Part shown: piece after piece, positions 48,684 through 64,000 of the stretch
Position numbering within the stretch: the stretch's first letter is position 1
Layout of the letters: each line of letters opens with the position of its first letter
Translations under genes and position numbers: made by a program
Notes under the pieces: generated by a model
Databases searched by the model: none
The model's input: the letters and a program-made list of their open reading frames with translations, nothing else
Told to the model about the DNA's origin: nothing
DNA from: Escherichia coli
Lineage (GTDB): Bacteria > Pseudomonadota > Gammaproteobacteria > Enterobacterales > Enterobacteriaceae
Reading direction: 5' to 3' (one strand)
DNA: 64,000 nt
Assembly (NCBI RefSeq): GCF_003790525.1
Contig: NZ_CP033635.1

Positions 48684-50369
48684 TCAGGCTTTATTGTCCA
48701 CTTTGCCGCGCGCTTCGTCACGTAATTCTCGTCGCAAAATTTTTCCGACGTTAGATTTCGGTAACTCATCACGAAACTCCACCAGCTTCGGTACTTTGTA
48801 GCCCGTGAGCTGACGGCGGCAAAAAGTCACCAGTGACTCTTCGGTAAGCGATGGATCTTTTTTCACAACGAAGATTTTCACCGCTTCACCACTAGAGCCG
48901 GAAGGTACGCCAACAGCCGCGACTTCCTGTACGCCAGGATGCTGCATGACGACATCTTCAATCTCGTTGGGATAGACGTTAAAACCGGAAACCAGAATCA
49001 TGTCTTTTTTACGATCGACAATGCGCAGGAATCCTTCTTCATCCATCACCGCGATGTCGCCGGTGTGTAACCAGCCATTTTTGATGATTTCATCGGTAGC
49101 ATCCGGACGCTGCCAGTAACCCAGCATCACCTGCGGTCCTTTGACACAAAGCTCACCTGGTTGACCAGGTGGTACTTCATTATCATCATCATCCACCAGT
49201 TTGGCTTCCGTCGACGGCACCGGCAAACCGATGCTACCACTATGATAATCAATATCATACGGGTTAACGCTCACCAGCGGCGCACACTCGGTCAGGCCAT
49301 AACCTTCCAGCAGATACTGTCCAGTCAGTTTCACCCAACGTTCTGCCACCACTTGCTGAACAGGCATCCCTCCGCCTGCGGAAAGATGCAGACTGGAGAA
49401 ATCCAGCTGCTGGAACTCTTTATTGTTCAGCAACGCATTGAACAAGGTGTTAACGCCAGTGATAGCGGTAAACGGATATTTCGCTAACTCTTTTACCAAC
49501 CCTGGAATATCGCGCGGGTTAGTGATAAGCAGGTTCTGCCCCCCCAGTTCGATAAACAGCAGGCAGTTAATGGTCAGTGCAAAAATGTGATACAGCGGCA
49601 GCGCCGTCACCACCAGCTCTTTGCCCGGATGCAACAGCGGACCATAGGTCGCGTTAACCTGTTCCAGGTTCGCCAGCATATTGCGGTGAGTCAGCATCGC
49701 GCCTTTCGCCACACCAGTGGTACCGCCGGTGTATTGCAGGAAAGCTAAATCTTCCGGCACCAGTTCGGGTTTGACGTACTGCATCCGGTAGCCGTTGTGC
49801 AGGGCGCTACGAAATGAAATGGCATCTGGCAGATGGTATTTCGGCACCAGACGCTTGATGTATTTAACAACGAAATTGACTACCGTGCCTTTTGCCGTAG
49901 ATAGCTGATCGCCCATACGGGTCAGAATTACGTGCTGAACGGCGGTTTTATCAACCACTTTTTCCAGAGTGTGGGCAAAGTTAGACACGATAACAATCGC
50001 CGATGCGCCGCTATCGTTAAGCTGATGCTCAAGTTCACGCGGGGTATACAACGGGTTAACGTTTACGACAATCATCCCGGCACGCAAAATGCCAAACAGC
50101 GCCACCGGATATTGCAATAAATTAGGCATCATCAACGCAACGCGATCGCCTTTCTTCAGTCCCAACCCTTGTTGCAAATAAGCGGCAAACGCGCGACTGC
50201 GTTCTTCCAGTTTGCGGAAGGTCATCACCTCCCCCATATTCACAAACGCGGGTTGATCGGCGTAGCGCGCGACCGACTGCTCAAACATATCTACCAGAGA
50301 TTGATAACGGTCAGGGTTGATCTCCGTCGGAACGTCCGCGGGATAACGGTTAAGCCAAACCTTCTTCAA
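48684..50369 (-). CDS. fadD: long-chain-fatty-acid--CoA ligase
   Basis: 561 aa from TTG ([10 protein letters not shown] read as MKKVW) with GAGGTG Shine-Dalgarno; AMP-binding signature [18 protein letters not shown]. Confidence 0.9.
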
Positions 50370-60650: not shown

Positions 60651-62207
60651 TTACTCATCTTCATCGTGCGCCGGTTGCTCTTTAACAATGCGAACCAGAT
60701 CAACACGATAATCATTGGCTTCAATGATGGTGATATGCAGTGGCCCTACATCAATCACATCGCCCACACGGGGAATGTGACCATTTGCCGAGATCACGAG
60801 GCCCGCGACCGTCGCGATATCATCGTCATCGGCAAGGTGCTCAACATCAAGCGCCTGCTGCAAGGCATGCAAATCTGTACCGCCTTTTACCAGCCAGCCG
60901 TCACCGTCGGTAATGATTTCCGGCGTTTCGTCAGCGTCCGGGAATTCACCCGCAATGGCTTCCAGCACATCCAGCGGCGTGACCAGACCTTGTACCACAC
61001 CAAACTCGTTGGTCACGATAACAAAGCTCCCGCGAGCACGACGCAGTACGCCCAGCAGGTTGATCGGATCGAGGGTTTCCGGGACGATAATCGCCGGAGA
61101 CGCCGAAGCAATCGCCGCCACATCAACGCCCTCTTCCAGCGCCACCAGCAGTTCTTTAGCACGTACGATACCGATGATTTCATCCAGTTCACCGCGACAT
61201 ACCGGGAACAGACTGTGCGGTGAAGAGAGCAGTTGCTCGCGGATTTCATCGACCCCGAGATTAGCGTCAACCCAGCTTATTTCACCGCGCGGCGTCATGA
61301 TCCCGCGCAGAGAACGCGACGCCAGCGTCAGTACGCCGTTAATCATGTAACGTTCTTCTTCGGCAAATGCACCTTCCGGGATCGGCATCGGCATCGGGTT
61401 ATCGGCATCGTGCTGGACATTGGCCTGACGTTTCCCGCCCATCAAACGCAGGATGGCATCGGCAGTACGCGCTCGCAGCGGCAAAGTCGACTGGTGACGA
61501 ATAAAGTTGCGACGCGCAATTTGGTTAAACACTTCGATGATGATCGAGAAGCCAATCGCGGCATACAGGTAACCTTTCGGAATGTGGAAACCGAAACCTT
61601 CTGCCACCAGACTCAGACCTATCATTAACAGGAAGCTCAGACAGAGCACCACCACCGTTGGATGCTGGTTAACAAATCGCGTCAGCGGTTTCGATGCCAG
61701 CAGCATAACCGCCATCGCAATCACTACCGCCGCCATCATCACTGGCAGATGGTTAACCATCCCTACTGCCGTAATTACCGCATCCAACGAGAAGACGGCG
61801 TCAAGGATGACGATCTGTGTGACGACCACCCAGAAACTGGCGTAGCCTTTACCGTGGCCGGAATCATGATCGCGGTTTTCCAGCCGTTCATGCAGTTCGG
61901 TTGTTGCTTTGAACAGCAAGAATATCCCCCCGAACAACATAATCAGGTCGCGTCCGGAGAAGGAGAAATCCATGACGGTAAATAGCGGTTTGGTCAGCGT
62001 GACCATCCATGAAATCAGCGACAGCAGCCCCAGACGCATAATCAGCGCCAGTGATAATCCCAGCAAACGCGCTTTATCGCGTTGTTTTGGCGGCAGTTTG
62101 TCAGCAAGAATGGCGATGAAGACCAGGTTATCGATACCCAGCACAATTTCGAGAACAACAAGCGTGAGTAGCCCCGCCCAAATCGAGGGGTCCATTAAGA
62201 ATTCCAT
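60651..62207 (-). CDS. yoaE: TerC-family membrane protein with CBS pair and CorC domains
   Basis: 518 aa; N-terminal TerC helices, C-terminal CBS/CorC region. Confidence 0.9.
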
Positions 62208-62399
62208 GACAAGCTCCTGCTTAAGGAATAGCTATTCGACGCCAGAAATAATGCAGGCGTAACGACAAAATGCAAACGAAAGGTGCGGCATAAAGTGCCA
62301 GAAAGGCAGGCGTTAAAAGGCCTGATGCTGAAATGACGTCGGTGACGATCCATACTGCGGGCTACTGCCCTATACTCCATGGTTGTTAAACAGGAGTTA

Positions 62400-62669
62400 A
62401 ACATATCAGAGACACATCTGATTTGGCAAAGATTTACCTTCCTTTGCAAACGAATGTGACAAGGATATTTTACCTTTCGAAATTTCTGCTAATCGAAAGT
62501 TAAATTACGGATCTTCATCACATAAAATAATTTTTTCGATATCTAAAATAAATCGCGAAACGCAGGGGTTTTTGGTTGTAGCCCTTATCTGAATCGATTC
62601 GATTGTGGACGACGATTCAAAAATACATCTGGCACGTTGAGGTGTTAACGATAATAAAGGAGGTAGCAA
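62400..62669 (+). promoter_or_regulatory. manXYZ promoter/operator region (candidate CRP and Mlc-type sites)
   Basis: TGTGA half-site at 62455; inverted repeats ATCAGA-N6-TCTGAT (62405-62422) and CTTTCGA-N12-TCGAAAG (62474-62499); AAGGAGG Shine-Dalgarno before the GTG start. Confidence 0.5.
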
Positions 62670-63641
62670 GTGACCATTGCTATTGTTATAGGCACACATG
62701 GTTGGGCTGCAGAGCAGTTGCTTAAAACCGCAGAAATGCTGTTAGGCGAGCAGGAAAACGTCGGCTGGATCGATTTCGTTCCAGGTGAAAATGCCGAAAC
62801 GCTGATTGAAAAGTACAACGCTCAGTTGGCAAAACTCGACACCACTAAAGGCGTGCTGTTTCTCGTTGATACATGGGGAGGCAGCCCATTCAATGCTGCC
62901 AGCCGCATTGTCGTCGACAAAGAGCATTATGAAGTCATTGCAGGCGTTAACATTCCAATGCTCGTGGAAACGTTAATGGCCCGTGATGATGACCCAAGCT
63001 TTGATGAACTGGTTGCGCTGGCAGTAGAAACAGGCCGTGAAGGCGTGAAAGCTCTGAAAGCCAAACCGGTTGAAAAAGCCGCGCCAGCACCCGCTGCCGC
63101 AGCACCAAAAGCGGCTCCAACTCCGGCAAAACCAATGGGACCAAACGACTACATGGTTATTGGCCTTGCGCGTATCGACGACCGTCTGATTCACGGTCAG
63201 GTCGCCACCCGCTGGACCAAAGAAACCAATGTCTCCCGTATTATTGTTGTTAGTGATGAAGTGGCTGCGGATACCGTTCGTAAGACACTGCTCACCCAGG
63301 TTGCACCTCCGGGCGTAACAGCACACGTAGTTGATGTTGCCAAAATGATTCGCGTCTACAACAACCCGAAATATGCTGGCGAACGCGTAATGCTGTTATT
63401 TACCAACCCAACAGATGTAGAGCGTCTCGTTGAAGGCGGCGTGAAAATCACCTCTGTTAACGTCGGTGGTATGGCATTCCGTCAGGGTAAAACCCAGGTG
63501 AATAACGCGGTTTCGGTTGATGAAAAAGATATCGAGGCGTTCAAGAAACTGAATGCGCGCGGTATTGAGCTGGAAGTCCGTAAGGTTTCCACCGATCCGA
63601 AACTGAAAATGATGGATCTGATCAGCAAAATCGATAAGTAA
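62670..63641 (+). CDS. manX: PTS mannose-specific EIIAB component
   Basis: 323 aa; GTG start; Ala/Pro-rich interdomain linker. Confidence 0.93.
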   Translation: MTIAIVIGTHGWAAEQLLKTAEMLLGEQENVGWIDFVPGENAETLIEKYNAQLAKLDTTKGVLFLVDTWGGSPFNAASRIVVDKEHYEVIAGVNIPMLVETLMARDDDPSFDELVALAVETGREGVKALKAKPVEKAAPAPAAAAPKAAPTPAKPMGPNDYMVIGLARIDDRLIHGQVATRWTKETNVSRIIVVSDEVAADTVRKTLLTQVAPPGVTAHVVDVAKMIRVYNNPKYAGERVMLLFTNPTDVERLVEGGVKITSVNVGGMAFRQGKTQVNNAVSVDEKDIEAFKKLNARGIELEVRKVSTDPKLKMMDLISKIDK

Positions 63642-63703
63642 CGTATTGTGTTGATTATCACTCAGTTTTCACACTTAAGTCTTACGTAAACAGGAGAAGT
63701 ACA

Positions 63704-64000
63704 ATGGAGATTACCACTCTTCAAATTGTGCTGGTATTTATCGTAGCCTGTATCGCAGGTATGGGATCAATCCTCGATGAATTTCAGTTTCACCGTCCGC
63801 TAATCGCGTGTACCCTGGTGGGTATCGTTCTTGGGGATATGAAAACCGGTATTATTATCGGTGGTACGCTGGAAATGATCGCGCTGGGCTGGATGAACAT
63901 CGGTGCTGCAGTTGCGCCTGACGCCGCTCTGGCTTCCATCATTTCTACTATTCTGGTTATCGCAGGTCATCAGAGCATTGGTGCAGGTATCGCACTGGCA
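63704..64000 (+). CDS. manY: PTS mannose-specific EIIC component, 5' portion (continues past window end)
   Basis: ATG at 63704 with GGAG upstream; hydrophobic MEITTLQIVLVFIVACIAG. Confidence 0.88.
   Translation, partial: MEITTLQIVLVFIVACIAGMGSILDEFQFHRPLIACTLVGIVLGDMKTGIIIGGTLEMIALGWMNIGAAVAPDAALASIISTILVIAGHQSIGAGIALA

What the first reader, a model, noticed from the sequence alone, without database searches (positions are those of the whole stretch)
62400..62669. Multiple inverted repeats in the manX control region divergent from yoaE
The 462-bp yoaE-manX spacer contains a TGTGA half-site (62455), ATCAGA-N6-TCTGAT (62405-62422), CTTTCGA-N12-TCGAAAG (62474-62499) and a T/A-rich near-palindrome around CGATATC (62531-62553). 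These are consistent with the CRP and Mlc control known for the mannose PTS operon, but I cannot assign each site with certainty. The yoaE leader is transcribed from the same spacer in the opposite direction.
Basis: partly seen in the sequence, partly recalled or inferred. Interest (0 to 1): 0.3.

Follow-up and report, generated by a model that had tools for sequence, protein, structure and literature searches.

The report
Known E. coli manX/yoaE control region
This is the well-studied switch region between the E. coli mannose-transporter operon (manXYZ) and the magnesium-protection gene yoaE; the repeats are really there, but only about half of them coincide with the true regulator binding sites, so the finding is ordinary.

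Summary
All four motifs are in the sequence at the stated coordinates. The window is E. coli yoaE–yoaL / manX, with a 462-bp spacer.

Their assignment to CRP and Mlc is only partly right.
- The T/A-rich near-palindrome (62531-62553) is the promoter-proximal Mlc/NagC-type operator (62530-62552). It overlaps the manX -10.
- CTTTCGA (62474-80) lies inside the published "man distal" NagC operator (62464-86). Its partner TCGAAAG is not conserved, so that inverted repeat is not a unit.
- TGTGA at 62455 is not the CRP site and is not conserved. It overlaps the stretch that aligns with the CpxR footprint for yoaE in Salmonella. The best CRP match is at 62504-62525, 40.5 bp upstream of the start site implied by the 115-nt leader, and is near-invariant in 79 species.
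- ATCAGA-N6-TCTGAT lies in the spacer of the divergent yoaL-yoaE promoter, next to a PhoP box. It is found only in Escherichia.

Everything of substance is already published. The one small extra is a covarying RNA hairpin in the manX leader. Interest is low.

The parts
62464..62486 (.). Distal NagC/Mlc operator ('man distal'), centre 62475, about -80 from the manX start site. G and C at +/-11, the high-affinity NagC type.
   Evidence: Exact match to GATATTTTACCTTTCGAAATTTC in Table 1 of PMC3098098. A weight matrix built from the other 9 NagC sites scores it 15.66, second best in the 64-kb window. A strong site is found at the same offset in about 55-60 of 79 species, as 37 distinct sequences.
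62504..62525 (.). CRP (CAP) site, ATTACGGATCTTCATCACATAA. Perfect right half TCACA (62518-22), weak left half. Centre 62514.5 = -40.5 (class II position).
   Evidence: Best match to the CRP consensus in the spacer, 7/10 core positions. Its position follows from the 115-nt leader. Near-invariant in 79 species, including the non-consensus left half. manX is a known CRP target. The published figure of -40.5 is from my memory of Plumbridge 1998 and was not checked here.
62530..62552 (.). Proximal Mlc/NagC-type operator ATTTTTTCGATATCTAAAATAAA, centre 62541, about -14. A/T at +/-11 (Mlc type). Overlaps the -10.
   Evidence: TT at -6/-5 and AA at +5/+6, as defined in PMC4288165. Weight-matrix score 11.75. 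TT/AA kept in 76/79 species and A/T at +/-11 in 75/79. Centre-to-centre distance to the distal site is 65-66 bp in 50 of the 55 species with a strong distal site (65-68 bp in all 55).
62544..62549 (+). manX -10 hexamer TAAAAT. Transcription start at about 62555.
   Evidence: 115-nt 5' UTR (PMC3089445). Invariant in 79 species.
62588..62603 (.). Cra (FruR) box. Core TGAATCGATTCG at 62590-62601, centre about +41.5 in the manX leader.
   Evidence: 11/12 match to the known Cra core TGAATCGATTCA. It is the only such match in the 64-kb window, where 0.2 are expected. CTGAATCGATT is invariant in nearly all 79 species. Cra binds PmanX and represses it in Salmonella. E. coli manXYZ is described as regulated by Mlc and FruR.
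62590..62619 (+). Possible RNA hairpin in the manX leader: UGAAUCG (62590-96) paired with CGAUUCA (62613-19), 16-nt loop. Its 5' arm is the left half of the Cra box.
   Evidence: 65 of 69 distinct leaders keep at least 6 of 7 pairs; none of 200 permuted arms reaches that. 88.9% of cells are paired, and the changes are mostly G-C to G.U or U-A to U.G. There are no two-sided compensatory changes, because the 5' arm is invariant.
62624..62644 (+). Conserved RNA stem-loop in the manX leader, 26-46 nt upstream of the start codon (62624-29 paired with 62639-44).
   Evidence: RNAalifold consensus with compensatory changes in all 6 pairs. 90.8% of cells paired, against 18-38% paired for the two-helix structure as a whole when the partners are slid.
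62657..62672 (+). manX Shine-Dalgarno AAGGAGG (62657-63) and GTG start (62670).
   Evidence: Invariant in 79 species.
62455..62459 (.). Not a conserved CRP element.
   Evidence: 10-60% conserved per base. Its 22-mer matches 6/10 of the CRP core. Salmonella has TGTAA here, inside the 12-nt CpxR footprint GCAAAGAGATGT, which aligns to window 62445-56.
62405..62422 (.). It lies in the spacer of the predicted yoaL-yoaE promoter. In K-12 it reads ATCAGAG-ACGC-CTCTGAT.
   Evidence: The left arm is conserved because it overlaps the extended -10 (TGaTATGTT on the - strand). The right arm is 10-30% conserved, apart from its last base (80%). The inverted repeat is present only in Escherichia.
62493..62499 (.). 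No assigned function.
   Evidence: 40-70% conserved per base. No strong weight-matrix hit is centred here.
62387..62403 (-). PhoP box TGTTTA-ACTCC-TGTTTA for yoaL-yoaE. Overlaps the predicted extended -10.
   Evidence: The only exact match to (T/G)GTTTA-N5-(T/G)GTTTA in the window, where 0.05 are expected. Both half-sites are conserved. PhoP-P gave a gel shift and a DNase I footprint on the Shigella yoaE promoter, and yoaE rose 7-fold in a phoPQ deletion.
62400..62429 (-). Predicted sigma-70 promoter of yoaL-yoaE: -35 TTGCCA (62429-24), 18-bp spacer, TG-extended -10 TATGTT (62405-00).
   Evidence: Consensus scan. The TGnTATGTT motif is conserved across genera. The start site was not verified.
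62433..62456 (-). CpxR region for yoaE: GCAAA-N5-GTAAA on the - strand (62447-33), plus the stretch that aligns with the Salmonella CpxR footprint (62445-56).
   Evidence: Both pentamers are invariant and the N5 between them varies. The CpxR-P footprint GCAAAGAGATGT in Salmonella was located in loci L007 and L025 and aligned to the window.
62195..62353 (-). yoaL, the leader small ORF. It overlaps the yoaE start (62207) by 13 nt.
   Evidence: RefSeq annotation. A stop codon in yoaL strongly lowers yoaE-lacZ expression.

Best explanation
The 462-bp spacer is the known divergent control region of E. coli manXYZ (+ strand) and yoaL-yoaE/mgpA (- strand).

On the manX side, transcription starts at about 62555 from a promoter with a good -10 (TAAAAT) that depends on cAMP-CRP bound at 62504-25, centred at -40.5 (class II activation). 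Two ROK-family operators flank the CRP site. The distal one (62464-86, about -80) has G/C at +/-11, the NagC type. The proximal one (62530-52, about -14) has A/T at +/-11, the Mlc type, and overlaps the -10. Mlc, and to a lesser extent NagC, bound at the proximal operator blocks RNA polymerase. The constant 65-66-bp spacing around the CRP-bent DNA suggests the two operators cooperate, probably through a loop as at nagE-nagB. Repression is relieved when glucose transport lets dephosphorylated PtsG sequester Mlc, or when GlcNAc-6-P releases NagC. A Cra/FruR box at about +41 adds repression from within the leader, relieved by fructose phosphates.

On the yoaE side there is a TG-extended -10 promoter overlapped by a PhoP box, which would give repression at low Mg2+. 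A CpxR site lies just upstream, and the yoaL leader ORF follows.

Shown here:
- the sequence matches;
- exact identity of the distal site to the published operator;
- the positions of all sites relative to the published leader length;
- conservation of sequence and spacing in 79 species.

Taken from the literature:
- binding of NagC, Cra, PhoP and CpxR;
- regulation by CRP, Mlc and Cra.

Inferred:
- looping between the two operators;
- PhoP acting by occluding the promoter;
- identity of the proximal site with the published Mlc footprint.
For: - Identity of the locus: 100% match to E. coli yoaE/yoaL/manX in 5423 of 5426 complete genomes.
- 115-nt manX leader.
- The distal operator sequence is listed verbatim as a NagC site.
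- Operator definition: TT/AA at +/-5,6, and A/T versus C/G at +/-11.
- A leave-one-out NagC weight matrix ranks 62464-86 and 62530-52 first and second in the spacer. The two best hits fall at the same two places in most of 79 species, 65-66 bp apart.
- The CRP consensus scan puts the best site at 62504-25.
- The block 62501-62555 is almost invariant.
- Cra box: 11/12 match, unique in the window, invariant, with a Cra gel shift and repression in Salmonella.
- yoaE side: PhoP box and footprint, and 7-fold derepression in a phoPQ deletion; CpxR footprint; yoaL; mgpA induced by high Mg2+.
Against: - The CRP site matches only 7/10 core positions. A consensus scan alone is not significant: shuffled spacers reach a comparable match 12% of the time.
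- I could not read Plumbridge & Kolb 1991 or Plumbridge 1998. The footprint coordinates of the CRP and proximal Mlc sites therefore rest on position arithmetic, motif rules and my recollection.
- The proximal box overlaps the -10 and the A/T-rich spacer, so promoter function alone could explain part of its conservation.
- The distal operator is weak or absent in about 20 of 79 species, so the two-operator mechanism is not universal.
- 66 bp is not a whole number of helical turns.
- The mSphere paper describes PhoP as up-regulating yoaE in Shigella, whereas the table in the source paper shows higher expression in the phoPQ deletion.
Confidence: 0.88

Rival explanations
1. One reading: TGTGA at 62455 is a half-site of the CRP site that activates manX, or of a second CRP site serving yoaE.
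For: TGTGA is the canonical CRP half-site. Its 22-mer (62452-73) matches 6/10 core and 10/18 positions.
Against: There is no TCACA-like partner. The pentamer is 10-60% conserved, and Salmonella has TGTAA. It would be centred near -92.5, not at the class II position. It overlaps the stretch aligned to the CpxR footprint. A better and invariant CRP site exists at 62504-25.
Confidence: 0.05
2. CTTTCGA-N12-TCGAAAG (62474-99) is itself a 26-bp palindromic operator for a separate, unidentified regulator.
For: Perfect 7-nt arms. The repeat finder extends it to 15-nt arms at 87% complementarity (pair I2).
Against: 7-nt inverted repeats are not enriched in the spacer (2 observed, 0.7 expected, p = 0.19). 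The right arm is 40-70% conserved. The left arm is fully accounted for by the published distal NagC operator. The extended complementarity is expected because A/T-rich quasi-palindromic operators resemble each other's reverse complements (compare pair I1).
Confidence: 0.04
3. The near-palindrome 62531-53 is conserved only as promoter DNA (-10 hexamer plus A/T-rich spacer) and is not a repressor operator.
For: It overlaps the invariant -10. Its weight-matrix score of 11.75 is only ninth in the 64-kb window.
Against: It meets every sequence rule for an Mlc operator. TT/AA are kept in 76/79 species, while the central bases (CGATATC, CACTATC, CACTGTC) vary as operator centres do. It keeps a fixed 65-66-bp distance from the distal operator in most species. 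'man distal' in the published list implies a proximal partner. Mlc repression of manXYZ is established.
Confidence: 0.07
4. ATCAGA(G)-N-(C)TCTGAT (62405-22) is an Escherichia-specific operator, or a hairpin, that regulates the yoaL-yoaE promoter.
For: It sits exactly in the -35/-10 spacer of the predicted promoter. K-12 carries two substitutions that lengthen the arms to 7 nt (ATCAGAG/CTCTGAT), so the symmetry survives sequence change within Escherichia.
Against: It is absent outside Escherichia. About three 6-nt inverted repeats are expected by chance in this spacer. The left arm is conserved for another reason, the extended -10 and, by inference, the PhoP footprint.
Confidence: 0.08

Closest known systems
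manXYZ promoter of E. coli K-12 as described by Plumbridge & Kolb 1991 and Plumbridge 1998 (CAP site plus two NagC/Mlc operators)
   Same: It is the same locus. In the 801 bases compared with K-12 (window 62122-62922) there are 7 substitutions; 4 of them fall in the 462-bp spacer, and none touches the manX-side sites. The distal operator is identical to the published sequence.
   Different: Nothing of substance. In this strain the PhoP box on the yoaE side is a perfect consensus (TGTTTA, where K-12 has CGTTTA), and the ATCAGA repeat has a different loop.
nagE-nagBACD divergent control region (two NagC operators flanking a CAP site, repression by DNA looping)
   Same: Two ROK-family operators lie either side of a CRP site in a divergent spacer. 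The operator rules are the same.
   Different: Here the operators are 65-66 bp apart. Mlc is the main repressor. The CRP site is at a class II position for only one of the two promoters. The divergent gene, yoaE, belongs to a different regulon (PhoP, CpxR).
ptsG promoter (Mlc, CRP and Cra control; SgrS post-transcriptional control)
   Same: The same set of regulators act: Mlc, CRP, Cra and SgrS.
   Different: Site layout differs. manX also carries a NagC-type distal operator.
PhoP-repressed promoters in which the PhoP box overlaps the -10 or start site
   Same: The exact PhoP box overlaps the predicted extended -10 of yoaL-yoaE. yoaE is derepressed in a phoPQ deletion in Shigella.
   Different: Most characterised PhoP boxes replace the -35 and activate. 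The promoter geometry here is predicted, not mapped.

Membership tests
Mlc/NagC (ROK family) operator | 23-bp quasi-palindrome with invariant TT at -6,-5 and AA at +5,+6 (PMC4288165) | tested here: met
   Met by both 62464-86 and 62530-52. Kept in 76/79 species for the proximal site and 56/79 for the distal site.
Mlc/NagC (ROK family) operator | Base at +/-11: A/T for Mlc sites, C/G for high-affinity NagC sites | tested here: met
   Proximal site has A...A (Mlc type). Distal site has G...C (NagC type). Across species the proximal site has A/T at both ends in 75/79. The distal site has G or C at one or both ends in 44 of 55.
Mlc/NagC (ROK family) operator | Experimentally shown to bind the protein | not testable with these tools
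   The distal site is listed as a known NagC operator. The proximal site's footprint is in Plumbridge 1991 and 1998, which could not be read.
CRP (CAP) site, class II | 22-bp site resembling AAATGTGATCTAGATCACATTT, with TGTGA-N6-TCACA cores | tested here: inconclusive
   62504-25 has a perfect TCACA but only 2/5 in the left core, 7/10 overall. It is the best match in the spacer but not significant by itself.
CRP (CAP) site, class II | Centred near -41.5/-40.5 from the transcription start | tested here: met
   The centre at 62514.5 is -40.5 from 62555, the start implied by the 115-nt leader.
   6/10 core match, no right half-site, not conserved. It aligns with the edge of the CpxR footprint in Salmonella.
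Cra (FruR) operator | Match to gcTGAAtCGaTTCAgc / RSTGAAWCSNTHHW | tested here: met
   TGAATCGATTCG matches 11/12. It is the only match in the window, against 0.2 expected. Invariant across species.
Cra (FruR) operator | Cra binding and Cra-dependent repression | not testable with these tools
   Gel shift on PmanX and derepression in a cra deletion were reported for Salmonella. The sequence of the predicted box appears only in a figure, which is not held.
PhoP box | (T/G)GTTTA-N5-(T/G)GTTTA direct repeat | tested here: met
   Exact match at 62403-62387 on the - strand, unique in the window. PhoP-P footprint in Shigella.
CpxR box | GTAAA-N5-GTAAA direct repeat upstream of the promoter | tested here: inconclusive
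   GCAAA-GGAAG-GTAAA at 62447-33 has one mismatch; both pentamers are invariant. The published Salmonella footprint aligns to the adjacent and overlapping stretch 62445-56.

The most novel reading that the evidence does not exclude
The manX leader may carry RNA elements that have not been described. The first is a stem-loop at 62624-44 with compensatory changes in all six pairs. The second is a hairpin at 62590-62619 whose 5' arm is the same DNA as the left half of the Cra box, so one invariant sequence would serve as a DNA operator and as an RNA stem. Either could affect leader stability or translation, or the known access of SgrS, DicF and Hfq.
Probability: 0.25. Interest if true: 0.3.

Novelty: already known. 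Interest (0 to 1): 0.1.

Why it matters
It matters little as a discovery. manXYZ control by CRP, Mlc, NagC and Cra, and yoaE control by PhoP, CpxR and the yoaL leader ORF, are all published.

The useful outcome is a corrected map of the sites in window coordinates. It also shows that short inverted repeats picked by eye in an A/T-rich promoter are a poor guide: two of the four were chance or lineage-specific, and the real CRP and Cra sites were missed.

One practical link is worth stating. The PhoP box overlapping the predicted yoaL-yoaE -10, together with the 7-fold derepression in a Shigella phoPQ mutant, offers a simple explanation for the high-Mg2+ induction of mgpA (yoaE). A 2025 paper describes the mechanism of that induction as unclear.

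Tried and rejected
- Rfam scan of 61900-64000 at E-value up to 10: only chance-level hits, no riboswitch or sRNA in either leader.
- Terminator scan: none found.
- Folding the whole manX leader: not more stable than shuffles, z = -0.37. I therefore make no claim of a globally structured leader. Only the two local stems are supported, by comparative evidence.
- CRP consensus scan as stand-alone evidence: not significant. The assignment rests on position and conservation.
- Reading the primary footprint papers (Plumbridge & Kolb 1991; Plumbridge 1998 and 2001; El Qaidi & Plumbridge 2008; Deutscher 2006): none is held.
- Supplement of the ROK operator paper: not held.
- Supplement of the Cra paper: the Cra box is given only as an image.
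- Azam & Vanderpool 2018: paper cap reached.
- Reconciling 'yoaL starts 13 codons downstream of the original annotation' with the 52-codon RefSeq ORF: no ATG, GTG or TTG falls at the expected codon. Left unresolved.
- In one search the anchor ATCACA occurs twice in six loci (L008, L012, L013, L016, L054, L064). Five of them (all but L054) were wrongly scored as lacking a strong distal site there; one search shows they have strong ones. I therefore give the distal count as about 55-60 of 79.

Full report
**Locus.** The 3' end of the window is E. coli DNA. yoaE runs on the - strand (60651-62207) and manX on the + strand, with a GTG start at 62670. The spacer between them is 462 bp. A 571-base query covering the spacer matches 5423 of 5426 complete E. 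coli genomes, and RefSeq annotates yoaE, the small ORF yoaL (62195-62353, - strand) and manX there. The conversion is window coordinate = K-12 (NC_000913.3) coordinate - 1,839,378. In the 801 bases compared, the window differs from K-12 at seven positions. Three of them are 62392, 62414 and 62416.

**Checking the observation.** As statistics they are weak:
- Perfect 6-nt inverted repeats with loops up to 20 nt occur 9 times, against 3.2 in dinucleotide-preserving shuffles (p about 0.02).
- 7-nt repeats occur twice, against 0.7 expected (p = 0.19).
- TGTGA/TCACA occurs twice, against 0.7 expected.

The region is therefore mildly palindrome-rich, as a regulatory spacer should be. No single repeat stands out by chance arguments alone.

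**Anchoring the manX promoter.** Rice & Vanderpool give a 115-nt manX 5' UTR (PMC3089445). That puts the start site at about 62555, with TAAAAT (62544-49) as the -10. A scan with the CRP consensus finds its best match in the whole spacer at 62504-25 (ATTACGGATCTTCATCACATAA). The right half TCACA is perfect and the left half is weak, giving 7/10 core positions. The centre at 62514.5 is exactly -40.5. From memory this is the position Plumbridge 1998 reports, but I could not open that paper.

**Mlc/NagC operators.** PMC4288165 defines these as 23-bp quasi-palindromes. Only TT at -6/-5 and AA at +5/+6 are invariant. Mlc sites have A/T at +/-11 and high-affinity NagC sites have C/G. The FITBAR paper (PMC3098098, Table 1) lists ten E. 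coli NagC operators, including 'man distal' GATATTTTACCTTTCGAAATTTC. That sequence is window 62464-86.

I built a symmetrised weight matrix from the other nine sites. It scores 62464-86 at 15.66, second best in the 64-kb window. It scores 62530-52 (ATTTTTTCGATATCTAAAATAAA) at 11.75, the second-best hit in the spacer. Both have the TT/AA signature. The distal site has G and C at +/-11 (NagC type). The proximal site has A and A (Mlc type) and overlaps the -10.

The near-palindrome around CGATATC is the proximal operator, offset by one base. CTTTCGA is merely the right half of the distal operator. The long complementarities reported by the repeat finder (pairs I1 and I2) reflect two quasi-palindromic operators of the same family.

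**Comparative test.** I fetched the manX locus from 80 species-level genomes of Enterobacteriaceae. In 79 of them yoaE lies divergently upstream, with a spacer of 437-485 bp. A MAFFT alignment gave three groups.
- Almost invariant on the manX side: 62501-62555 (CRP site including its non-consensus left half, the proximal operator, the -10); 62589-62599 (CTGAATCGATT); and the Shine-Dalgarno and start region.
- Conserved on the yoaE side: 62334-62378, both PhoP half-sites, the extended -10, and two pentamers at 62433-37 and 62443-47.
- Not conserved: TGTGA 62455-59 (10-60% per base), the TCTGAT arm 62417-22 (10-30%, except its last base at 80%) and the TCGAAAG arm 62493-99 (40-70%).

Scanning each orthologous spacer with the weight matrix shows that the two best hits fall at the same two places in most species. 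Among the 55 species with a strong distal site, the centre-to-centre distance is 65-66 bp in 50. The proximal site keeps TT/AA in 76/79 species and A/T at +/-11 in 75/79. A strong distal site is present in about 55-60 of 79, as 37 distinct sequences. This is the pattern of a maintained binding site rather than frozen sequence. The chance of a score of at least 9 in such a search window is about 0.02. The distal site is weak or absent in the Enterobacter cloacae complex, Lelliottia, Cedecea, Buttiauxella, Shimwellia and two Escherichia species.

The invariant block in the leader is TGAATCGATTCG (62590-62601). It matches 11 of 12 positions of the Cra/FruR core TGAATCGATTCA (motif from bioRxiv 10.1101/080929; consensus RSTGAAWCSNTHHW). 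It is the only such match in the window, where 0.2 are expected. It is centred at about +41.5. Cra binds PmanX in vitro and represses manXYZ in Salmonella (PMC10100716). E. coli manXYZ is described as regulated by Mlc and FruR (PMC9392796).

The promoter scan finds TTGCCA-18-TATGTT with an upstream TG on the - strand (62429-62400). The TGnTATGTT motif is conserved. Its left arm is conserved only because it overlaps the extended -10. The repeat as such exists only in Escherichia. In K-12 two substitutions make it ATCAGAG-ACGC-CTCTGAT.

Immediately downstream lies TGTTTA-ACTCC-TGTTTA (62403-62387, - strand), an exact PhoP box and the only one in the window. In Shigella flexneri, PhoP-P shifts and footprints the yoaE promoter. 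Their box is aTGTTTAactccCGTTTAa, the K-12 allele. yoaE is 7-fold higher in a phoPQ deletion (PMC5775216). Their probe primers map to 62300-20 and 62493-62513. Their footprint of -107 to -83 maps to about 62386-62410 if counted from an in-frame upstream start at 62303. That mapping is my inference.

In Salmonella, CpxR-P footprints GCAAAGAGATGT (PMC6952189). I located this in the Salmonella loci, and it aligns to window 62445-56, GCAAACGAATGT. Next to it is GCAAA-N5-GTAAA (62447-33, - strand), with invariant pentamers. yoaL is a leader ORF, and its translation is needed for full yoaE expression. mgpA (yoaE) is induced by high Mg2+.

**Mechanism.** manX is a class II CRP-dependent promoter. It is bracketed by a NagC-type distal operator and an Mlc-type proximal operator, the latter over the -10. 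A Cra box in the leader acts as a downstream repressor site.
- Established in the literature: CRP activation, Mlc and NagC repression, and Cra binding and repression.
- Shown here: the coordinates, the fit to the motif rules, identity of the distal site with the published operator, and deep conservation of sequence and spacing.
- Inferred: cooperation or looping between the operators, and PhoP repressing yoaL-yoaE by occluding the extended -10.

**Leader RNA.** The whole manX leader does not fold better than shuffles (z = -0.37), and Rfam finds nothing. Comparative analysis of 48 distinct leaders gives two local stems.
- A stem-loop at 62624-29 with 62639-44 has compensatory changes in all six pairs and 90.8% of cells paired. 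When the partners are slid, the two-helix structure as a whole is only 18-38% paired.
- A second stem pairs UGAAUCG (62590-96, the left half of the Cra box) with CGAUUCA (62613-19). It is kept in 65 of 69 distinct leaders, mostly through G.U-compatible single changes.

**Verdict.** Two real sites, CRP and Cra, were missed. The feature is already known and the interest is low.

Noticed in passing
window 62387-62403 (- strand), with 62400-62408: An exact PhoP box (TGTTTA-N5-TGTTTA) overlaps the predicted TG-extended -10 of the yoaL-yoaE promoter. In this strain it is a perfect consensus; K-12 and Shigella have CGTTTA (62392 is A here and G in K-12). Shigella yoaE is derepressed 7-fold in a phoPQ deletion. 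Together these give a simple explanation for the high-Mg2+ induction of mgpA/yoaE, whose mechanism a 2025 paper calls unclear.
   Followed up: partly
window 62624-62644 (+ strand RNA): Conserved stem-loop in the manX 5' UTR, 26-46 nt upstream of the start codon. Compensatory changes occur in all six pairs across 48 distinct enterobacterial leaders.
   Followed up: partly
window 62590-62619 (+ strand RNA): The left half of the Cra box (UGAAUCG) is complementary to CGAUUCA 16 nt downstream. The pairing is kept in 65 of 69 distinct leaders, mostly through G.U-compatible changes. One sequence may serve both as a DNA operator and as an RNA stem, or the second arm may be an extra Cra half-site.
   Followed up: partly
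window 62334-62378 (- strand): The start of yoaL (MDRHRRH...) and the 25 nt upstream are almost invariant at all three codon positions in 79 species. This includes GGGC-N4-GCCC (62359-62370), with invariant arms and a variable loop, just 5' of the yoaL ATG. That suggests an RNA or translation-level signal in the yoaL-yoaE leader.
   Followed up: no
window 62195-62353: Weaver et al. say yoaL probably starts 13 codons downstream of its original annotation. The 52-codon RefSeq ORF has no ATG, GTG or TTG at codon 14, and no Met lies 13 codons upstream. The true yoaL start remains unclear from sequence alone.
   Followed up: partly
loci L008, L012-L014, L016, L020-L022, L046, L048, L052, L057, L063, L073 (Klebsiella, Raoultella, Kluyvera, some Enterobacter): distal operator about 190-192 bp upstream of manX: In these genera the distal operator has T or A at both +/-11 positions (for example TATTTTTTGCGCTGCAAAATAAT), which is the Mlc type. 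Escherichia, Citrobacter and Salmonella have the NagC-type G...C. In the Enterobacter cloacae complex, Lelliottia, Cedecea and Buttiauxella no strong distal site is found. The NagC input to manX may be lineage-specific.
   Followed up: partly
window 48721-48743 and 48857-48879: The best NagC/Mlc weight-matrix hit in the whole window (CGTAATTCTCGTCGCAAAATTTT, score 17.9) and a second hit 136 bp away both lie inside the 3' end of the fadD coding sequence (K-12 coordinates about 1,888,099 and 1,888,235). No known NagC target is there. They may be chance matches.
   Followed up: partly
window 62504-62513: The non-consensus left half of the CRP site (ATTACGGATC) is as invariant across 79 species as the perfect right half. 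That points to selection for a deliberately weak half-site, or to an overlapping signal that has not been identified.
   Followed up: no
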